Of a stretch of 25,763 nucleotides of DNA, positions 20,522 through 25,448 are shown piece after piece. The stretch comes from a virus (Duplodnaviria; Heunggongvirae; Uroviricota; Caudoviricetes). The stretch is from IMG/VR virus record IMGVR_UViG_2609459852_000021; one strand, 5' to 3'. The first letter of the stretch is position 1, and each line of letters begins with the position of its first letter. Below the pieces are notes generated by a model that did no database searches, was not told the origin of the DNA, and saw only the letters and a program-made list of their open reading frames with translations. Position numbers and translations under genes: made by a program.

Positions 20522-20532
20522 GTGGAGTGGAT

Positions 20533-22911
20533 ATGGCAGCAGTAAAAATCTCAGGTGTGCTGAAAGATGGTGCGGGAAAACCAATACAGAACTGCACTAT
20601 TCAACTGAAGGCAAAGCGTAACAGCACCACGGTACTGGTGAACACGGTGGCCTCTGAAAATCCGGATGAAGCCGGGCGTTACAGCATGGACGTTGAGTAT
20701 GGTCAGTACAGCGTCATCCTGTGGATTGAGGGTTCTCAGCCATCACATGTTGGGACCATTACCGTCTATGAAGGTTCCAGTCCGGGGACGCTGAATGATT
20801 TTCTCGGTGCCATGACGGAAGATGATGTCATGCCGGAGGCATTGCGCCGTTTTCAGGCAATGGTGGAAGAAGCGGCACGCAACGCCGAAGCCGCCTCTCA
20901 GAGCGCAGCGGCGGCAAAGAAATCCGAAACTGCAGCGGCATCATCGAAGAACGCGGCGAAAACCTCAGAAACGAATGCAGCTAATAGTGCACAGGCGGCA
21001 GCGACCTCAAAGACTGCATCGGCAAACTCCGCGACAGCAGCCAAAAAATCAGAAACCAACGCGAAAAATAGCGAGACAGCCGCAAAGACGAGCGAAACCA
21101 ACGCAAAGTCCAGCCAGACGGCAGCGAAAACCAGCGAAACGAATACCAAAGCCAGTGAAACTGCGGCGAAAAACAGCCAGGATGCAGCGGCCCAAAGCGA
21201 GAGTGCCGCAGCTGGTTCTGCAAGTGCGGCGGCTTCTTCTGCCACTGCATCAGCCAACAGTCAAAAAGCTGCAAAAACCAGCGAAACTAACGCAAAGTCC
21301 AGCCAGACGGCAGCGAAGACCAGCGAAACGAATGCCAAAGCCAGCGAAACTGCGGCGAAAAACAGTCAGGATGCAGCAGCCCAAAGCGAGAGTGCTGCAG
21401 CTGGTTCTGCAAGCGCGGCGGCTGCTTCTGCCACTGCATCAGCCAACAGTCAAAAAGCAGCAAAAACCAGTGAAACCAATGCAAAGACAAGCGAGACTGC
21501 AGCGGCGAACTCGGCGAAAGCATCGGCAGCAAGCCAGACAGCAGCTAAAGCAAGTGAAGACGCAGCCAGAGAGTATGCAAGTCAGGCAGCAGAGCCGTAT
21601 AAATATGTCTTACAGCCACTGCCTGATGTGTGGATACCATTTAACGATTCACTGGATATGATTACGGGCTTTTCGCCATCTTATAAAAAGATTGTTATTG
21701 GTGACGACGAAATAACGATGCCTGGTGACAAGGTGGTTAAGTTTAAACGCGCATCAAAAGCAACTTACATTAATAAATCTGGTGTGCTGACAGAGGCTAC
21801 CATTGACGAGCCACGATTTGAACGTGATGGCCTGCTTATTGAGGGGCAAAGAACGAACTTCTTCCCGAACAGTACAGACCCTTCGAAGTGGAATAAGTCA
21901 ACTTCACTGGACGTTACAGAAACAGGCACAGATAGTTTCGGTTTTAATTATGGCCGGTTTGTCGTACAGGATTCGATTGTTGGTACAAGTAAAGCGCATA
22001 CCATTATCGGACTGTATTCGAGTACCGGAGGGGTTGATACTTCAGGGGACGAAAAGTATGTAACTATATCCTGTCGGGTAAAAAGTGAAGTTGATAATAT
22101 CGACGTTCGTATTTTATTTGAACATTATGATGGGGAGGTAAGGACATCAATAGGAACAGCAAGCCTGAACCTTACCACCCGCATAATTAGCAAGACAGGT
22201 CAGACAAGCCGTGTTACAGCAAGGTCTGTTAAGGATGATGCAACTGGCTGGATATTTTTTGAGGCTACATTAAAAGCAGATACAACAGAAAATACGGTTG
22301 GTGGTTTCGTCCAGTATTCTCCGGATACAGGTCAGATGGTGGCATCAGGGGATTGTCTCGATGTAACCACTCCCCAGATTGAGGCTGGTACAGGCGCATC
22401 ATCTTTTATTGTTACGGGGGCTGCACCGGTAACGCGGGCAAGCGATATAGTTACAGTCCCAATTAAGAATAATCTTTATAATCTACCTTTTACGGTTCTT
22501 TGTGAGGTACATAAGAACTGGTATAAAACGCCAAATGCAGCACCGCGTGTTTTTGATACCGGCGGTCATCAAACCGGAGCGGCTATTATTCTTGGCTTCG
22601 GTTCTTCAGCAGATTACGACGGATTTCCTTATTGCGATATTGGTGGGGCTAACAGGCGGATAAACGAAAATGCATCGCTTGAAAAAATGGTTATGGGGAT
22701 GCGTGTAAAGTCAGATCAGTCTACATGCGCAGTAAGTAACGGGCGTATATCCAGCGAAACAAAAACCACATGGTCCTGTATTCAGAACTCCGCAATTATC
22801 CGTATTGGAGGCCAGACTACAGCCGGTTTACGCCATTTATTTGGTCATGTCAGGAATTTCAGAATATGGCACAAGGCATTGACTGATGCTCAGGTGGGGG
22901 AGTTAATCTAA
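20533..22911 (+). CDS. stf: side tail fibre protein (lambda Stf-like N-terminus, Ala/Ser/Thr-rich repeat shaft, non-lambda C-terminal receptor-binding region)
   Basis: N-terminus MAAVKISGVLKDGAGKPIQNCTIQLKA... matches lambda Stf; shaft built of SETNAK/TAAKTSE-type repeats; the C-terminal ~430 aa lacks the His-rich lambda tip and ends ...FRIWHKALTDAQVGELI (possibly a LamG/ConA-like jelly roll). Start at ATG 20533; an in-frame GTG lies at 20527. Confidence 0.88.
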   Translation: MAAVKISGVLKDGAGKPIQNCTIQLKAKRNSTTVLVNTVASENPDEAGRYSMDVEYGQYSVILWIEGSQPSHVGTITVYEGSSPGTLNDFLGAMTEDDVMPEALRRFQAMVEEAARNAEAASQSAAAAKKSETAAASSKNAAKTSETNAANSAQAAATSKTASANSATAAKKSETNAKNSETAAKTSETNAKSSQTAAKTSETNTKASETAAKNSQDAAAQSESAAAGSASAAASSATASANSQKAAKTSETNAKSSQTAAKTSETNAKASETAAKNSQDAAAQSESAAAGSASAAAASATASANSQKAAKTSETNAKTSETAAANSAKASAASQTAAKASEDAAREYASQAAEPYKYVLQPLPDVWIPFNDSLDMITGFSPSYKKIVIGDDEITMPGDKVVKFKRASKATYINKSGVLTEATIDEPRFERDGLLIEGQRTNFFPNSTDPSKWNKSTSLDVTETGTDSFGFNYGRFVVQDSIVGTSKAHTIIGLYSSTGGVDTSGDEKYVTISCRVKSEVDNIDVRILFEHYDGEVRTSIGTASLNLTTRIISKTGQTSRVTARSVKDDATGWIFFEATLKADTTENTVGGFVQYSPDTGQMVASGDCLDVTTPQIEAGTGASSFIVTGAAPVTRASDIVTVPIKNNLYNLPFTVLCEVHKNWYKTPNAAPRVFDTGGHQTGAAIILGFGSSADYDGFPYCDIGGANRRINENASLEKMVMGMRVKSDQSTCAVSNGRISSETKTTWSCIQNSAIIRIGGQTTAGLRHLFGHVRNFRIWHKALTDAQVGELI
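21085..21462 (+). repeat. perfect-frame tandem duplication, 2 x 189 bp (63 aa), inside stf; partial third unit to about 21490
   Basis: Units starting at 21085 and 21274 are near-identical at nucleotide level and encode KTSETNAKSSQTAAKTSETN(T/A)KASETAAKNSQDAAAQSESAAAGSASAAA(S/A)SATASANSQKAA twice. Confidence 0.85.
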
Positions 22912-23192
22912 TGAAAGATTTAACACTCAAATTTGTCGACAGGGCCGACTTTTCGGCCTTTATGGAGAGCATTGGCTATTATGATGACGAGTCGATGCAG
23001 GATGATATTCTTATTGACGTGATAGGTAATGTGTACAAAGAAACCGGAGAACTTACTGAAGATGGCGAGCCGGTATGTGTTAAGGAGGACGGATATTTTG
23101 TAAGCGTGCGCATCATTAATGATGCAAAAAAATCGTCAATATTCGATAAATACGCGATTGTTGTTGAGCATCAACTTCGTGGCTGGATGTGA
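22911..23192 (+). CDS. hypothetical acidic protein, 93 aa (possible tail-fibre chaperone or accessory protein)
   Basis: ATG overlaps the stf stop by 1 nt (TAATG); about 20 Asp/Glu against 10 Lys/Arg; no family recognised. Confidence 0.55.
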   Translation: MKDLTLKFVDRADFSAFMESIGYYDDESMQDDILIDVIGNVYKETGELTEDGEPVCVKEDGYFVSVRIINDAKKSSIFDKYAIVVEHQLRGWM

Positions 23193-23201
23193 GGGAGACA
23201 A

Positions 23202-23906
23202 ATGGCTACATCGACAGTAATTCCTGATGACATCAAAACGCTAAAGGGAGATGTCAGTAAAGCCAAGGAAGATATTTCCTCAATTAACGGAAAAGTATCA
23301 ACGCTTCAGACTGATATGACCAGTGCAAAGCAGGATATCAGCTCCAGATACACAAAAACTGAAGTTGATAATAAGCTGAAAAACAAACTGGAAGTGAACG
23401 CTCTGGAAAGCGGTCGTTATGGTGGAGATTTTTACCCGCTGACTGGCCGTGAAGCGTTTTATTTGTGGGGATTGGGCACGACTACAGCGGCGGCAAACCT
23501 TTATCTTAATCCTGACTCCGCAATTTCGTCTGTACTGCGGTCAACATCGTCTATCCGCTATAAAGATTCAGTAGAGACAATAGATTCAGAGCACGCCGAT
23601 CTCATTTTCAGGATGCGCCCTGTGTGGTACAGGTCGCAATGCGAAAATGACAGGCGTGACTGGGGATTCTACGGATTGATTGCCGAGGAAGTAGGAGAAA
23701 TTGCCCCTCAGTTTGTACACTGGCGACCAGCTAACGAGAATGATGCTCCTGAAGCTATTTCCAGCAATGGCCTTGTTGCCGAAGGTGTAATGTACGAACG
23801 TCTGGTTGTTCCACTGATTCACCATATCCAGAAACTGACTGAAAGAGTTGATGAACTTGAGTCAGAATTAAAGCTGTTATCAACTTCCCGAAGCGATATC
23901 GGATAA
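23202..23906 (+). CDS. small tail-fibre-like protein with C-terminal intramolecular chaperone (peptidase S74-like) domain
   Basis: RBS GAGGGAG; N-terminal heptad/coiled-coil segment (DIKTLKGDVSKAKEDISSINGKVSTLQTDMTSAKQDISS); C-terminal half carries S-x-x-R-x-K (SSIRYK), RPVWYR, GFYGLIAEEVGEIAPQFV, GVMYERLVVPLIHHIQKL and a terminal coiled coil, which I recall as the endosialidase/T5 pb1 chaperone-domain signature. Confidence 0.6.
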   Translation: MATSTVIPDDIKTLKGDVSKAKEDISSINGKVSTLQTDMTSAKQDISSRYTKTEVDNKLKNKLEVNALESGRYGGDFYPLTGREAFYLWGLGTTTAAANLYLNPDSAISSVLRSTSSIRYKDSVETIDSEHADLIFRMRPVWYRSQCENDRRDWGFYGLIAEEVGEIAPQFVHWRPANENDAPEAISSNGLVAEGVMYERLVVPLIHHIQKLTERVDELESELKLLSTSRSDIG

Positions 23907-23916
23907 AGGAGGAGTA

Positions 23917-24210
23917 ATGGATATAAGCCCCTTACTTCATGCACTTTGTGCTGTGGCTGCGCAGACACTGGTTGGTCTTTTTACCGGAAACTGGGCTTAC
24001 GGAGCGATAGCCGGTTGTGCGTTCTTCATTGCGCGTGAACACACCCAGGCAGAATATCGCTGGATTGAAATGTTCGGGCATGGCAAGCGAATGAATATGC
24101 CGTGGTGGGGCGGTTTTGATCCGCGCGCGTGGGATGTGGCAAGCCTGATGGATTTTGCTGTGCCGGTGGTGGCGTGTCTGCTGGTCTGGCTGTTGGTTAA
24201 TCGTGGGTGA
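23917..24210 (+). CDS. small membrane protein, 97 aa, about 3 predicted TM helices
   Basis: Strong RBS AGGAGG; hydrophobic segments PLLHALCAVAAQTLVGLFTG, AYGAIAGCAFFIA and FAVPVVACLLVWLLV; no family recognised. Confidence 0.5.
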   Translation: MDISPLLHALCAVAAQTLVGLFTGNWAYGAIAGCAFFIAREHTQAEYRWIEMFGHGKRMNMPWWGGFDPRAWDVASLMDFAVPVVACLLVWLLVNRG

Positions 24211-24220
24211 AAAAAGGTGA

Positions 24221-24349
24221 GCTGTATATGCAACGGAGGAAGAAACCTCGTTGCGGGAAGCCTGGAAGAAGTATCGGGTGTTGCTGAACCGTGTTGATAC
24301 ATCAACTGCACCTGATATTGAGCGGCCTGTGAACCCTGTCAGGGAGTAA
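24221..24349 (+). pseudogene. tfa: 3' remnant of a tail fibre assembly gene (tfa), no start codon
   Basis: Frame opens directly after a TGA and encodes ...[39 protein letters not shown], the conserved C-terminus of lambda-family Tfa proteins. Confidence 0.6.
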
Positions 24350-24363
24350 TCATTGGGATTATG

Positions 24364-24396
24364 CCGCAGCACGTCTTAAGCAAGAACGTGCTGCGG
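24364..24396. terminator. 10-bp stem-loop between the tfa remnant and the 3' end of the methyltransferase gene (possible bidirectional terminator)
   Basis: CCGCAGCACG-(13-nt loop)-CGTGCTGCGG; a T-run (TATTTTTT) follows about 10 nt downstream on the + strand, so the terminator call is weak. Confidence 0.35.
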
Positions 24397-24403
24397 TTGG
24401 ATG

Positions 24404-25072
24404 CTATTTTTTCCCTGAAGCGGAAAACATTACTACAGTACCTTGAACCTTGGTTTTAACATTCTCGAAATGCTCTGAGAGTATATGTGTTAAGCCTTCT
24501 TCGGAATCTTTTGTGTTTGAAAAGATGCCTTTCTGATTGTAAATGCGCATCAGTTTTTGACCGAAGCTATTGTGCACAACTCCATCGCCAAGAATTGTGG
24601 CTCCGTATAGAGTTCCATCGTCAGTTAAGGCCTGCGCCGCATTGCGTATTACACAGCTTTTTGTAGATATATTTCCAGGCAGGCAGTGAAGAAGGTAAAA
24701 CATGGAAATGGAATCAAATTGACCATGTAACGTCGCGGGATAAGGTTCAAAAACATCATGGCTAATTTTATGTTTAATTTTTGATTCCCCAGCCCTTGTA
24801 GATGCCGCGTTCAGGCTAGCTTCGTTCAAATCCATTAAAGATATCAGACTACTCTCAGGTACGTGAGTAAGGTAAAACCCAGTTCCAACACCAATATCCA
24901 GATGGTTGTTACCTAAATGTTCCAGAAAGTGTGGAAGAAGGTGTTCCTTTGTAGGACATCCCCATGCAAGCCGATTTGATACTCCCAAAACCCACCAGTC
25001 ATAAAGCTTTAGGGTAAGTGGTGTGTAAATTTTAGCCCCATCATCTGTGTTTTTTTTCATTAATTTCACCAT
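24404..25072 (-). CDS. class I SAM-dependent methyltransferase, substrate unknown (probable start at 25060, MKKNTDD...)
   Basis: Minus-strand ORF with Rossmann motif I LDIGVGTGFY, an acidic post-I strand (SLMDLNEAS) and FDSISMFYLLHCLP; no DPPY/NPPY or Pro-Cys motif, so it is unlikely to be a DNA methyltransferase; AT-rich. Confidence 0.75.
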   Translation of the reverse strand: MVKLMKKNTDDGAKIYTPLTLKLYDWWVLGVSNRLAWGCPTKEHLLPHFLEHLGNNHLDIGVGTGFYLTHVPESSLISLMDLNEASLNAASTRAGESKIKHKISHDVFEPYPATLHGQFDSISMFYLLHCLPGNISTKSCVIRNAAQALTDDGTLYGATILGDGVVHNSFGQKLMRIYNQKGIFSNTKDSEEGLTHILSEHFENVKTKVQGTVVMFSASGKK

Positions 25073-25128: not shown

Positions 25129-25398
25129 ATGCTGCCGCAGCATAGCGATATTGAAATAGCCTGGTATGCTTCGATACAGCAGGAGCCGAATGGCTGGAAG
25201 ACCGTCACCACACAGTTCTACATCCAGGAATTCAGTGAGCATATTGTGCCACTTCAGGATGCTGTAGATCTGGAGATCGCAACGGAGGAAGAAAACTCGT
25301 TGCTGGAAGCCTAGAGGAAGTATCGGGTGTTGCTGAACCGTGTTGATACATCAACTGCACCTGATATTGAGTGGCCTGCAAATCCTGTCAGGGAGTAA
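25129..25398 (+). pseudogene. tfa: truncated tfa-like gene with in-frame amber codon at 25312-25314
   Basis: Encodes [91 protein letters not shown]; the amber codon falls where Tfa homologues have Trp (TGG); the frame opens immediately after a TAA, so the N-terminus is much shorter than in the 194-aa lambda Tfa. Confidence 0.55.
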
Positions 25399-25448
25399 TC
25401 ATTGGGATTATGCCGCAGACACGTCGTATGCAGGAACGTGCTGCGGTT
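25262..25448 (+). repeat. direct repeat copy 2 (tfa 3' end plus downstream hairpin)
   Basis: About 90% identical to 24215-24398; includes an imperfect hairpin at 25413-25446. Confidence 0.8.

What the first reader, a model, noticed from the sequence alone, without database searches (positions are those of the whole stretch)
23917..24210. Small membrane protein encoded directly after the adhesin genes: candidate receptor-masking exclusion factor
Phages often place a small envelope protein that blocks their own receptor next to the receptor-binding gene (Cor-like and Llp-like factors). This 97-aa protein with about three TM helices has a strong RBS and sits in that position, downstream of a fibre with a replaced tip.
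Basis: inference. Interest (0 to 1): 0.5.

Follow-up and report, generated by a model that had tools for sequence, protein, structure and literature searches.

The report
Conserved small phage inner-membrane cargo protein
The 97-residue gene is real and belongs to a widespread, uncharacterised family of three-helix inner-membrane proteins that phages carry behind their tail-fibre or tailspike genes, but it lacks the defining features of the outer-membrane receptor-masking lipoproteins (Cor, Llp) and its function is still unknown.

Summary
Window 23917-24210 (+) is a 97-aa gene with a strong Shine-Dalgarno site. Its AlphaFold2 model has three confident hydrophobic helices. It follows the side-tail-fibre module of an E. 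coli lambdoid prophage integrated at dusA.

It belongs to PHROG 1443, which has no known function. It has no Pfam, NCBIfam, PADLOC or PDB relative. The family is large, and the gene is found in 2068 of 5426 complete E. coli genomes.

The Cor/Llp-like receptor-mask reading is not supported, for four reasons:
- There is no lipoprotein signal.
- A near-identical copy sits behind divergent fibre tips, and clearly related copies (75-89% identical to one another) sit behind mostly unrelated tailspikes.
- Homologues at 44-65% identity are stand-alone chromosomal genes in Aeromonas, Leclercia, Silvania and Sphingomonadales.
- The central REHTQAEYRW...MPWWGGF motif is almost invariant, which suggests a conserved host partner rather than a phage-specific one.

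Published LF82 RNA-seq shows the prophage copies silent in LB. Two of the three copies are induced in DMEM and macrophages, independently of the late genes.

The best guess is a mobile cargo protein acting at the inner membrane on a conserved envelope component, possibly reducing secondary infection. This is inferred, not shown. Interest is modest.

The parts
23906..23912 (+). Shine-Dalgarno AAGGAGG, overlapping the stop codon of the upstream gene and 4 nt before the ATG
   Evidence: Read directly from the sequence. Homology to phage 21 starts at 23905, so the ribosome-binding site travels with the gene.
23917..24210 (+). Coding sequence of the 97-aa membrane protein (PHROG 1443 family; RefSeq WP_032239071.1)
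   Evidence: ORF. PHROG 1443 match, E 4e-57, positions 1-96 of 97. 585 homologues. dN/dS 0.12-0.42. RefSeq annotation.
23926..23985 (+). Helix 1 (residues 4-23), hydrophobic; invariant H8 and Q16, with invariant D2 just before it
   Evidence: AlphaFold2 model, pLDDT 93; invariant columns.
23992..24075 (+). Helix 2 (residues 26-53): a hydrophobic half (26-39), then an amphipathic half carrying the invariant R40-E41-(H42)-x-Q44-A45-E46-Y47-R48-W49
24076..24135 (+). Interfacial loop (residues 54-73) with R58 and the motif M61-P62-W-W-G65-G66-F67-D-x-R-x-W72
   Evidence: The loop carries on average 5.65 K+R across 186 homologues.
24136..24204 (+). Helix 3 (residues 74-96), hydrophobic from F80, with invariant D79 at its start. 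It exists in several alternative sequence versions among relatives.
   Evidence: translated sequences.
20527..22911 (+). Context: side tail fibre (794 aa) with a lambda-type N-terminus and a non-lambda tip
   Evidence: Pfam phage_tail_N, E 9e-64. NCBIfam GTA_spike_fiber domain at 437-638, E 6e-19.
22911..23192 (+). Context: 93-aa acidic protein (PHROG 1361, unknown function) that accompanies this fibre tip
   Evidence: 51% identical to the phage 21 counterpart.
23202..23906 (+). Context: 234-aa tail-fibre-domain protein with a Peptidase_S74 intramolecular-chaperone domain; absent from the phage 21 arrangement
   Evidence: Pfam PF13884, E 5e-6. Matches positions 1147-1384 of the 1385-position PHROG 3299 profile. 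The same 234-aa ORF is present in L008 and on plasmid ESBL242.
24230..24349 (+). Context: 3' remnant of a tail-fibre-assembly (tfa) gene, which travels with the 97-aa gene in phage 21 as well
   Evidence: RefSeq pseudogene 'tail fiber assembly protein, missing N-terminus'. Homology to phage 21 extends to 24286.

Best explanation
**What is shown.** The gene encodes a small integral membrane protein of about 97 residues, predicted as three helices. It belongs to an uncharacterised but strongly conserved family. The gene is a mobile accessory (cargo) gene that usually rides at the 3' end of tail-fibre or tailspike modules. It is exchanged as a cassette with sharp joints at its own ribosome-binding site.

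**What is inferred.** The protein sits in the cytoplasmic membrane. It works through the nearly invariant polar and aromatic surface formed by D2, H8, R40-E41-H42, E46, R48, R58, the MPWWGGF loop and D79, all placed at one membrane interface. That surface binds, or acts on, a conserved host envelope component. Candidates are a lipid-linked precursor or a conserved inner-membrane machine, not a phage-specific or outer-membrane receptor.

**What is speculative.** For the phage, the pay-off is most plausibly an envelope change in the lysogen or infected cell that lowers the success of secondary infection. This would act at the envelope-crossing step, not by masking the receptor.
For: **Predicted structure.** The AlphaFold2 model has pLDDT 93 and three helices.

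**Family and conservation.**
- It is a member of PHROG 1443.
- There are 450 clusters at 50% identity, and the 150 best representatives are all 58-146 aa.
- Twenty columns are invariant in 51 homologues down to 57% identity.
- dN/dS is 0.12-0.42.

**Cassette behaviour.**
- Homology to phage 21 begins at 23905, which is the ribosome-binding site. Homology to Gally begins at 23842.
- The same protein lies behind divergent fibre tips and behind mostly unrelated tailspikes.
- It also occurs on an IncFIB plasmid that carries phage tail genes, and on a second plasmid among ead/Ea22-like and phd/doc genes.
- 2068 of 5426 E. coli genomes carry it, with a median of 2 copies.

**A conserved host target is suggested.**
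- Homologues at 44-65% identity are stand-alone chromosomal genes with conserved non-phage neighbours.
- In Aeromonas these are pirin, a RIO1 kinase and lipid A acyltransferases.
- In Leclercia they are a Peptidase_M3 protein, a MetE-like protein and an ABC transporter. In Silvania they are a porin and PFOR.
- In Sphingomonadales they are LigA, PNPase and DAHP synthase.

**Expression outside the late operon (LF82 RNA-seq, PMC9928086 S1/S4 tables; values are log2(fpkm+5)).**
- GALLYPH_17 rises from 3.8-4.5 in LB to 7.9-8.7 in macrophages, while the Gally portal and terminase stay near 3-3.7.
- PERCE_24 rises to 5.6-6.4, while gene J stays at 3.3-3.6.
- In Gally a terminator-like hairpin lies between the tailspike and the gene.
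Against: **No functional test exists.** Every mechanistic step beyond 'conserved membrane protein, mobile cargo' is inference.

**Topology is unresolved.**
- The positive-inside rule puts the conserved loop in the cytoplasm, because most K+R residues lie in that loop.
- The phage 21 annotation instead reports a TMHMM two-helix N-in/C-in model, which puts the loop in the periplasm.

**Expression in lysogens is weak or absent in some cases.**
- The gene is at background in LB in all three LF82 prophages.
- The Tritos copy, whose stf-93aa-fibre ORF-X order (with a 346-aa rather than 234-aa fibre ORF) is closest to the window's, stays flat in every condition. Cross-mapping with the near-identical Perceval copy may blur this.
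- In the window there is no promoter-like site between the fibre and the gene. Here it may be expressed only with the late genes.

[quoted passage not shown] This family is unusually conserved.

Confidence: 0.35

Rival explanations
1. The protein is a host-physiology cargo gene unrelated to phage exclusion. It would be a cellular-type small membrane protein, for example for metal or ion handling, membrane homeostasis or stress tolerance. Phages picked it up, and it benefits the lysogen under particular conditions such as life inside macrophages.
For: - Stand-alone chromosomal orthologues lie in conserved non-phage loci in Aeromonas, Leclercia, Silvania and Sphingomonadales.
- Conservation across bacterial classes is very high.
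- The Gally and Perceval copies are induced in DMEM and macrophages but are silent in LB.
- The gene lies next to the sitABCD metal-uptake genes in phage 21 and Perceval.
- The invariant H8, E41, E46, D2 and D79 and the near-invariant H42 are metal-ligand-type residues.
- On a plasmid carrying phd/doc the gene lies among ead/Ea22-like accessory genes, not tail genes.
Against: - The recurrent position directly behind receptor-binding-protein genes in unrelated phage lineages would then reflect only the usual cargo slot at the end of the late operon.
- Homologues occur in large Aeromonas phages of about 235 kb, whose lifestyle I did not check. If these are lytic, lysogen fitness is irrelevant there.
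- Many prophage-end genes rise in macrophages in the same data set, so the induction is not specific.
Confidence: 0.3
2. The protein has a lytic-cycle function. It would be made late with the tail genes and act in lysis timing or control, or in a membrane-associated step of particle maturation or release.
For: - In the window the gene is packed tightly in the late operon, with no promoter or terminator between it and the fibre genes.
- In HZ41 and HEMP4 the longest ORF (first in-frame start) overlaps the tailspike stop codon.
- In Comamonas prophages it overlaps by 4 nt a downstream 125-aa gene that I read as holin-like, and lysozyme-like genes follow in related loci. These assignments come from my reading of the sequences only.
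- In EC.W1-9 an annotated holin, endolysin and endopeptidase follow two genes downstream.
- In Aeromonas phage 62AhydR11PP it overlaps a 173-aa ORF with hydrophobic stretches, again by my own reading.
- It is silent in LB lysogens.
- It is present in Aeromonas phages of about 235 kb.
Against: - Chromosomal orphan copies have no lysis genes nearby.
- In lambdoid and P22-like phages the lysis cassette lies elsewhere in the genome.
- The Gally copy sits behind a terminator-like hairpin and is transcribed while the late genes are silent.
- There is no match to any holin family in Pfam or PHROGs.
- The protein lacks the charged C-terminal tail typical of class I holins, and the 36-residue conserved loop is unlike a holin. 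This comparison rests on my own knowledge.
Confidence: 0.15
3. The protein is a surface-polysaccharide (seroconversion-type) accessory. It would interfere with, or redirect, a step of O-antigen, capsule or ECA assembly that uses an undecaprenyl-linked intermediate. It would thus alter a glycan receptor in general, not one protein receptor.
For: - In P22-like phages it occupies the slot between tailspike and integrase. In phage 611R6 it sits with an OafA/YrhL O-acetylase.
- It is repeatedly associated with glycan-degrading tailspikes: pectate-lyase folds in EC.W1-9 and in a Desulfovibrio prophage, and a Leclercia tailspike.
- An interfacial polar and aromatic motif would suit binding a lipid-linked head group.
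- Small hydrophobic phage proteins that inhibit O-antigen polymerase are known in phages epsilon15 and D3. This is from my own knowledge, not tested here.
Against: - There is no similarity to GtrA, acyltransferases or any glycan-pathway family.
- It also follows lambdoid side tail fibres and a Comamonas gpJ.
- It is present in Sphingomonadales, which lack classical LPS (my own knowledge).
- No glycan genes are consistently adjacent in chromosomal loci. The lipid A acyltransferases near the Aeromonas copy are two genes away and on the opposite strand.
Confidence: 0.12
4. One reading: a Cor/Llp-like factor that masks the phage's own outer-membrane receptor.
For: The gene lies next to the adhesin genes. 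The same is true of llp, which is adjacent to and downstream of the pb5 gene in T5 (PMC9586334).
Against: - There is no lipoprotein signal or lipobox, C11 is not conserved, and three membrane helices are predicted.
- It has no hit to any annotated exclusion family in PHROGs or Pfam.
- The same protein is paired with divergent or unrelated receptor-binding proteins.
- Chromosomal non-phage orthologues exist.
Confidence: 0.03

Closest known systems
T5 Llp and the Cor lipoproteins of T1/phi80-type phages (superinfection exclusion by blocking FhuA)
   Same: It is a small protein encoded next to the receptor-binding-protein gene. It is an accessory gene, not a structural one.
   Different: - Llp and Cor are small lipoproteins that bind FhuA and are specific for that receptor (PMC9586334).
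- This protein has no lipoprotein signal and is predicted to be three membrane helices.
- It is not tied to any one receptor-binding protein.
- It has chromosomal orthologues.
Inner-membrane injection blockers: P22 SieA; also HK97 gp15 and T4 Imm (the last two from my own knowledge)
   Same: It is a small phage-encoded protein predicted to sit in the inner membrane. It is encoded in or near the virion-gene region. It could act on the envelope-crossing step, not on adsorption.
   Different: - It matches no annotated exclusion family in PHROGs, Pfam or PADLOC.
[quoted passage not shown]
- This family is 44-65% identical across bacterial classes. It occurs in lambdoid and P22-like phages and on plasmids carrying phage genes, as well as in bacterial chromosomes.
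Lysogenic-conversion genes between tailspike and integrase in P22-like phages (gtrABC, oac/OafA); small O-antigen-polymerase inhibitors of epsilon15 and D3 (my own knowledge)
   Same: It has the same genomic slot in Gally and 611R6, where it lies beside an OafA acetylase. It is a small hydrophobic protein.
   Different: It has no homology to GtrA, B or C or to acyltransferases. It is not confined to O-antigen-specific phages, and no effect on glycans is known.
PHROG 1443 / PHROG 34165 (phage protein families of unknown function); phage 21 gene CPT_21_24 'putative membrane protein'
   Same: This is the same family: E 4e-57 over the full length, and 97.9% identity to the phage 21 protein.
   Different: Nothing differs. 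This is the family the gene belongs to, and it carries no functional information.
N-terminal membrane hairpin of the sensor kinase PhoR (Pfam PF11808)
   Same: There is a weak resemblance over residues 7-62: a tight two-helix membrane hairpin followed by a Trp-rich charged segment. 13 of 51 members give sub-threshold hits.
   Different: The best E-value is 0.039 and the score is 14 bits against a cut-off of 27. This is not homology in any demonstrable sense, and there is no kinase domain.

Membership tests
Cor / Llp exclusion lipoproteins | N-terminal lipoprotein signal peptide with a lipobox cysteine | tested here: not met
   The N-terminus is MDISPLLHALC. There is no basic N-region, and the residues before C11 are H-A-L, which is not a lipobox by the consensus I know. 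C11 is not among the invariant or near-invariant columns and is replaced in many homologues. The invariant D2, H8 and Q16 in helix 1 argue that it is retained, not cleaved.
Cor / Llp exclusion lipoproteins | Small soluble lipid-anchored protein that acts on the outer-membrane receptor FhuA | tested here: not met
   AlphaFold2 gives three hydrophobic helices with pLDDT 93. The features of Llp are taken from PMC9586334.
Cor / Llp exclusion lipoproteins | Paired with one receptor specificity (the cognate receptor-binding protein) | tested here: not met
   The protein is 98% identical between the window and phage 21. Their fibres are 44% identical overall and the 93/92-aa neighbours 51%. Copies 75-89% identical sit behind mostly unrelated tailspike bodies.
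Cor / Llp exclusion lipoproteins | Encoded adjacent to the receptor-binding-protein gene | tested here: met
Cor / Llp exclusion lipoproteins | Expression blocks adsorption or infection by the cognate phage | not testable with these tools
   This needs plasmid expression with adsorption and plating assays.
Inner-membrane injection blockers (P22 SieA, HK97 gp15, T4 Imm) | Sequence or profile similarity to one of these families | tested here: not met
   The PHROGs scan hits only families 1443 and 34165, both of unknown function. Pfam, NCBIfam and PADLOC give nothing above threshold. This is an indirect test: no pairwise comparison with the individual proteins was run.
Inner-membrane injection blockers (P22 SieA, HK97 gp15, T4 Imm) | Integral inner-membrane location | tested here: inconclusive
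   The location is predicted only, from three hydrophobic helices. The topology predictions conflict.
Inner-membrane injection blockers (P22 SieA, HK97 gp15, T4 Imm) | Expressed from the prophage, or early in infection | tested here: inconclusive
   In LF82 RNA-seq all three copies are at background in LB. Two of the three are induced in DMEM and macrophages independently of the late genes, and the Tritos copy stays flat. No promoter-like site was found upstream in the window.
Inner-membrane injection blockers (P22 SieA, HK97 gp15, T4 Imm) | Blocks DNA entry without affecting adsorption | not testable with these tools
   This needs potassium-efflux or DNA-entry assays.
PHROG 1443 (unknown function) | Full-length match to the family profile | tested here: met
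   E 4e-57, residues 1-96 against profile positions 1-96 of 97.
Seroconversion genes (GtrA/B/C, Oac/OafA) | Homology to GtrA-like flippase, glycosyltransferase or acyltransferase families | tested here: not met
   No Pfam or NCBIfam hit for the query or for any of the 51 members.
Seroconversion genes (GtrA/B/C, Oac/OafA) | Located between tailspike and integrase/att in P22-like phages | tested here: met
   This holds for Gally and 611R6, which are relatives and not the window itself.
Holins (class I, three membrane helices) | Match to a holin family; adjacent endolysin; charged C-terminal tail | tested here: not met
   There is no holin hit. No endolysin lies nearby in the window. The C-terminus is only N-R-G. 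Some relatives do lie next to lysis genes (annotated; by my reading).

The most novel reading that the evidence does not exclude
The family is a previously unrecognised, enzyme-like or ligand-binding inner-membrane module of cellular origin. Phages of several morphotypes carry it next to their adhesin genes in order to reprogramme a universal envelope step. That step could be the handling of a lipid-linked precursor, or a conserved inner-membrane machine used during genome entry. The result would be broad protection against secondary infection that does not depend on the receptor. With copies in 38% of complete E. coli genomes, it would be one of the commonest unrecognised phage-resistance determinants.
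Probability: 0.15. Interest if true: 0.7.

Novelty: new variant of a known kind. Interest (0 to 1): 0.33.

Why it matters
**If it alters phage susceptibility or envelope make-up.** It would be a very common determinant. It is present in 2068 of 5426 complete E. coli genomes, often in several copies. It also occurs on plasmids carrying phage genes and in other Proteobacteria. That is relevant to host-range prediction and phage therapy. It would also be an unusual case of a cellular membrane protein recruited by phages.

**If it is simply a host-fitness cargo gene.** It adds one more uncharacterised prophage cargo gene. It is still a well-defined target:
- it is small;
- it has a sharply defined invariant motif;
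- chromosomal orthologues are available for genetics.

**As it stands.** It is an ordinary 'conserved hypothetical membrane protein'. The specific Cor/Llp idea can be set aside.

Tried and rejected
**Family scans.**
- Pfam and NCBIfam scans of the query gave nothing above threshold. So did a Pfam scan of all 51 aligned members. The only hint is a sub-threshold PhoR N-terminal hit.
- PADLOC gave no hit.
- A PDB sequence profile search gave no hit even at E = 10.

**Fold searches.**
- Foldseek against viral structures gave nothing at E <= 0.001.
- The afdb50 library was unavailable.

**Cor/Llp membership.** Rejected on the lipobox, the predicted fold and the lack of receptor specificity.

**A general link to Peptidase_S74 fibres.**
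- The gene follows S74-containing fibres in the window, L008, L009, the ESBL242 plasmid and a Desulfovibrio prophage.
- The HC6 fibre ends in what I read as an S74-type domain, and Gally keeps a 75-nt remnant of the S74 gene's 3' end.
- A home-made S74 profile found it upstream in only 3 of the genome loci. I therefore treat this as shared ancestry of one recombining module, not as a functional rule.

**The Tai tail-assembly-inhibition systems** (PMC11364771). Checked and unrelated; that paper does not mention transmembrane proteins at all.

**Source names.** All members are called 'hypothetical protein'. The exception is one Aeromonas UniRef entry named 'Prolipoprotein diacylglyceryl transferase'. 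I regard this as a mis-annotation, because Lgt is about three times longer and I see no similarity.

**Literature searches.** They found no functional study of this family.

**Model coordinates.** I inferred the spatial clustering of the invariant residues only from the helix register.
Full report
**Setting.** The window is the right arm of a lambdoid prophage of Escherichia coli. The 1.7-kb stretch 22800-24500 is 100% identical to part of the chromosome of strain 10035776-3. There the gene order is:
- J, lom and the side tail fibre;
- a 93-aa ORF and a 234-aa 'tail fiber domain-containing protein';
- the 97-aa ORF;
- a truncated tail-fibre-assembly pseudogene;
- a class I SAM methyltransferase on the opposite strand;
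- a second tfa fragment, a DinI-like gene and the integrase, next to dusA.

**The observation.**
- The ORF at 23917-24210 (+) encodes 97 aa.
- AAGGAGG at 23906-23912 overlaps the stop codon of the upstream gene.
- Hydrophobic stretches lie at about 5-23, 26-39 and 80-94.
- AlphaFold2 with 51 homologues gives a confident model, with mean pLDDT 93 and pTM 0.75. It has helices 4-23, 26-53 and 74-96 and a structured loop at 54-73.
- The gene is real. It matches PHROG 1443 over its full length at E = 4e-57.
- It has 585 homologues among 90% clusters and 450 clusters at 50% identity. The 150 best representatives are all 58-146 aa.
- dN/dS against ten relatives is 0.12-0.42.
M61, P62, G65, G66 and F67 are invariant.
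- R40, E41, Q44, A45, E46, Y47, R48, W49, R58, W72, D79, D2, H8, Q16 and G29 are also invariant in 51 sequences that go down to 57% identity.

**What it is not.**
- No Pfam, NCBIfam, PADLOC or PDB relative was found.
- Fold searches return only generic helical bundles.
- The Cor/Llp comparison fails on the features that define those proteins. Llp and Cor are small lipoproteins that act on FhuA (PMC9586334).
- This protein has an acidic N-terminus without a lipobox, and the one early cysteine is not conserved. Helix 1 carries invariant polar residues, so it is unlikely to be a cleaved signal.
- The phage 21 annotators recorded 'SignalP 29 aa; TMHMM 2 TMDs N-in C-in' for the 98% identical protein.
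- Counting K+R over 186 homologues puts nearly all positive charge in the 40-75 loop: 5.65 per protein, against 0.06 in the helix 1-2 turn. By the positive-inside rule this would put the loop and the N-terminus in the cytoplasm. The topology is therefore unresolved.

**Genomic behaviour in phages.**
- In phage 21, in lambda-like phages from infant gut and in LF82's Perceval, the order is stf, a 92-aa ORF, then the gene.
- In the window, in Tritos, in Escherichia sp. E1V33 and on an IncFIB plasmid that carries phage tail genes, an extra fibre-domain ORF of 234 or 346 aa lies between the 93-aa ORF and the gene. The 234-aa versions carry the S74 domain.
- In P22-like phages (Gally, HZ41, HEMP4, EC.W1-9, 611R6) it follows the tailspike. 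In Gally and 611R6 it lies just before the integrase. In 611R6 it lies beside an OafA O-acetylase.
- It also follows a Leclercia tailspike, a Desulfovibrio pectate-lyase/S74 tailspike and a 2520-aa Comamonas gpJ.
- The joints are sharp. Homology to phage 21 starts at the ribosome-binding site (23905) and runs into the tfa remnant (to 24286). Homology to Gally starts 75 nt upstream, inside the 3' end of the S74 gene.
- The position is not obligatory. On an E. albertii plasmid carrying phd/doc it sits among ead/Ea22-like genes. In Aeromonas phages of about 235 kb an 87-aa homologue follows a gene annotated as DNA helicase/terminase. In HC6-type siphophages only a decayed remnant is left.

**Not tied to a receptor.**
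- The protein is 98% identical between the window and phage 21.
- The two fibres are only 44% identical overall, roughly 55% over the C-terminal tip by my reading of the alignment. The 93/92-aa companions are 51% identical.
- Among five P22-like phages the protein is 75-89% identical, while most tailspike pairs share only the N-terminal region (the Pfam Head_binding domain in Gally) or nothing.
- A factor that masks the phage's own receptor should track the adhesin. This one does not.

**Not confined to phages.**
- A scan of one genome per species found 70 loci in Escherichia, Aeromonas, Leclercia, Silvania, Comamonas, Pantoea, Acidovorax, Sphingomonadales, Halomonas and Desulfovibrio.
- Five Aeromonas loci from four named species (A. 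rivipollensis, A. aquatica, A. taiwanensis and two A. media strains) share the context pirin, the gene, a RIO1-type kinase and two lipid A acyltransferases. No phage genes lie within 8 kb in the one locus with called genes and Pfam labels.
- Five Leclercia genomes share a downstream MetE-like protein and an ABC transporter after the gene; in three of them a Peptidase_M3 homologue lies upstream. Three Silvania genomes place the gene near a porin and pyruvate:flavodoxin oxidoreductase.
- Sphingomonadales copies lie next to ligA, pnp, DAHP synthase or AMP nucleosidase.
- These copies are 44-65% identical to the E. coli prophage protein and keep the invariant motif. That is unusually high for a phage accessory protein. 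[quoted passage not shown]
- This pattern points to a conserved cellular ligand or partner.

**Expression.**
- In the window there is no promoter-like or terminator-like site between the fibre and the gene.
- In Gally a strong terminator-like hairpin follows the tailspike, about 190 nt before the gene.
- Strain LF82 carries three homologues: GALLYPH_17, PERCE_24 and TRITO_22.
- Published RNA-seq (PMC9928086, tables S1 and S4) shows all three at background in overnight LB. None was called a moron, meaning a prophage gene expressed autonomously in the lysogen.
- In DMEM and inside macrophages GALLYPH_17 rises to log2 6.0-8.7, while the Gally portal and terminase stay near 3-3.7.
- PERCE_24 rises to 5.6-6.4 in macrophages, together with the fibre and the 92-aa gene, while J stays at 3.3-3.6.
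- TRITO_22 stays flat, although the two genes upstream of it rise to 6.4-8.3. Cross-mapping between near-identical copies may affect these numbers.
- So expression from the prophage is conditional and not universal.

**Interpretation.**
- Shown: this is a conserved, purifying-selected, three-helix membrane protein gene. It behaves as a mobile cassette, usually at the end of adhesin modules, and it has chromosomal orthologues.
- Inferred: the protein sits in the inner membrane and acts through a conserved polar and aromatic surface at one membrane interface on a conserved host component.
- Speculative: the benefit is reduced secondary infection at the envelope-crossing step (my estimate about 0.35).
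- The rivals are a host-physiology cargo function unrelated to phages (0.30), a late lytic-cycle role (0.15), a glycan or seroconversion accessory (0.12) and the original receptor-mask idea (0.03).

**Novelty and interest.**
- The sequence is already in the databases as a hypothetical or putative membrane protein and as PHROG 1443. Nothing about the locus is anomalous.
- The scale of the family is worth noting. It is present in 2068 of 5426 complete E. coli genomes, with a median of two copies and up to eight. It occurs on 40 plasmid records and is conserved across bacterial classes.
- It is a reasonable target for a simple expression and phage-panel experiment, but it is not a surprising finding. 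I score interest at 0.33.

Noticed in passing
window 23202-23906: A 234-aa 'tail fiber domain-containing protein' matches only the last ~240 positions of a 1385-position fibre family profile (PHROG 3299) and carries a Peptidase_S74 chaperone domain. It is kept as an intact 234-aa ORF in Escherichia sp. E1V33 (L008), in a contig labelled Collinsella MAG (L009) and on plasmid ESBL242 (L082). A 346-aa variant replaces it in L007 and in LF82's Tritos. It could be a functional mini-fibre or a tolerated remnant.
   Followed up: partly
window 24230-24398 and 25279-25448: A direct repeat of about 170 nt (94% and 90% identity in two pieces) flanks the SAM methyltransferase gene (24404-25072, minus strand). 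Both copies are 3' remnants of tail-fibre-assembly genes and are annotated as pseudogenes in RefSeq. This suggests the methyltransferase was inserted as a cassette by recombination within tfa.
   Followed up: partly
LF82 prophages Perceval and Tritos (PMC9928086, tables S1/S4); equivalent to window 20527-23906: The side-tail-fibre gene, the 92/93-aa gene and the Tritos 346-aa tail-fibre ORF are induced 8- to 40-fold inside macrophages. J, the tape-measure gene and the head genes of the same prophages stay at background. This implies a promoter independent of the late promoter somewhere at or upstream of stf.
   Followed up: partly
window 20527-22911 (residues ~105-350 and 437-638 of the fibre): The fibre shaft is a long, internally repetitive Ala/Ser/Thr/Lys-rich segment (AAKTSETNAK...-type repeats). 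The tip matches the NCBIfam 'GTA_spike_fiber' head-spike-fibre domain at E 6e-19.
   Followed up: no
L078 (Escherichia phage HC6) 4965-5162: HC6-type siphophages (also Salmonella phage ST1UNAM and phage PBM-2) keep only a decayed, unannotated remnant of the gene (…ANIPWWGGFDWRAWDLPSLLD). It lies directly after an 859-aa fibre that ends in what I read as an S74-type domain.
   Followed up: partly
L083 (E. albertii plasmid p2RM9973) 4480-4785: On this ~102-kb plasmid, which carries phd/doc, the homologue lies among ead/Ea22-like, DUF551 and DUF4752 accessory genes, not next to tail genes. The link to the adhesin is therefore not obligatory.
   Followed up: no
window 24136-24204 and homologues in L002, L003, L079-L082: The third helix occurs in at least four alternative sequence versions (…FAVPVVACLLVWLLVNRG, …FSFPIIGCLLVWILAS, …FVVPVTVCFCVYFSI, …FAIPLLACTLLYIFI). 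They are combined with different N-terminal variants, which suggests recombination inside the conserved core of the gene.
   Followed up: no
Aeromonas homologue P0276 (cluster of P0089): One UniRef entry names this 102-aa protein 'Prolipoprotein diacylglyceryl transferase'. All other sources say 'hypothetical protein'. It is probably a propagated mis-annotation.
   Followed up: no
window 23932-24372, minus strand: A 146-aa antisense ORF, longer than the real gene, overlaps it completely. The homologues and the purifying selection found here support the plus-strand frame. The antisense ORF itself was not searched.
   Followed up: partly
L001 (phage 21) 6386-9835 and LF82 Perceval: In phage 21 and Perceval the gene is immediately followed, on the opposite strand, by the sitABCD iron/manganese uptake operon. 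That operon is expressed in the lysogen.
   Followed up: no
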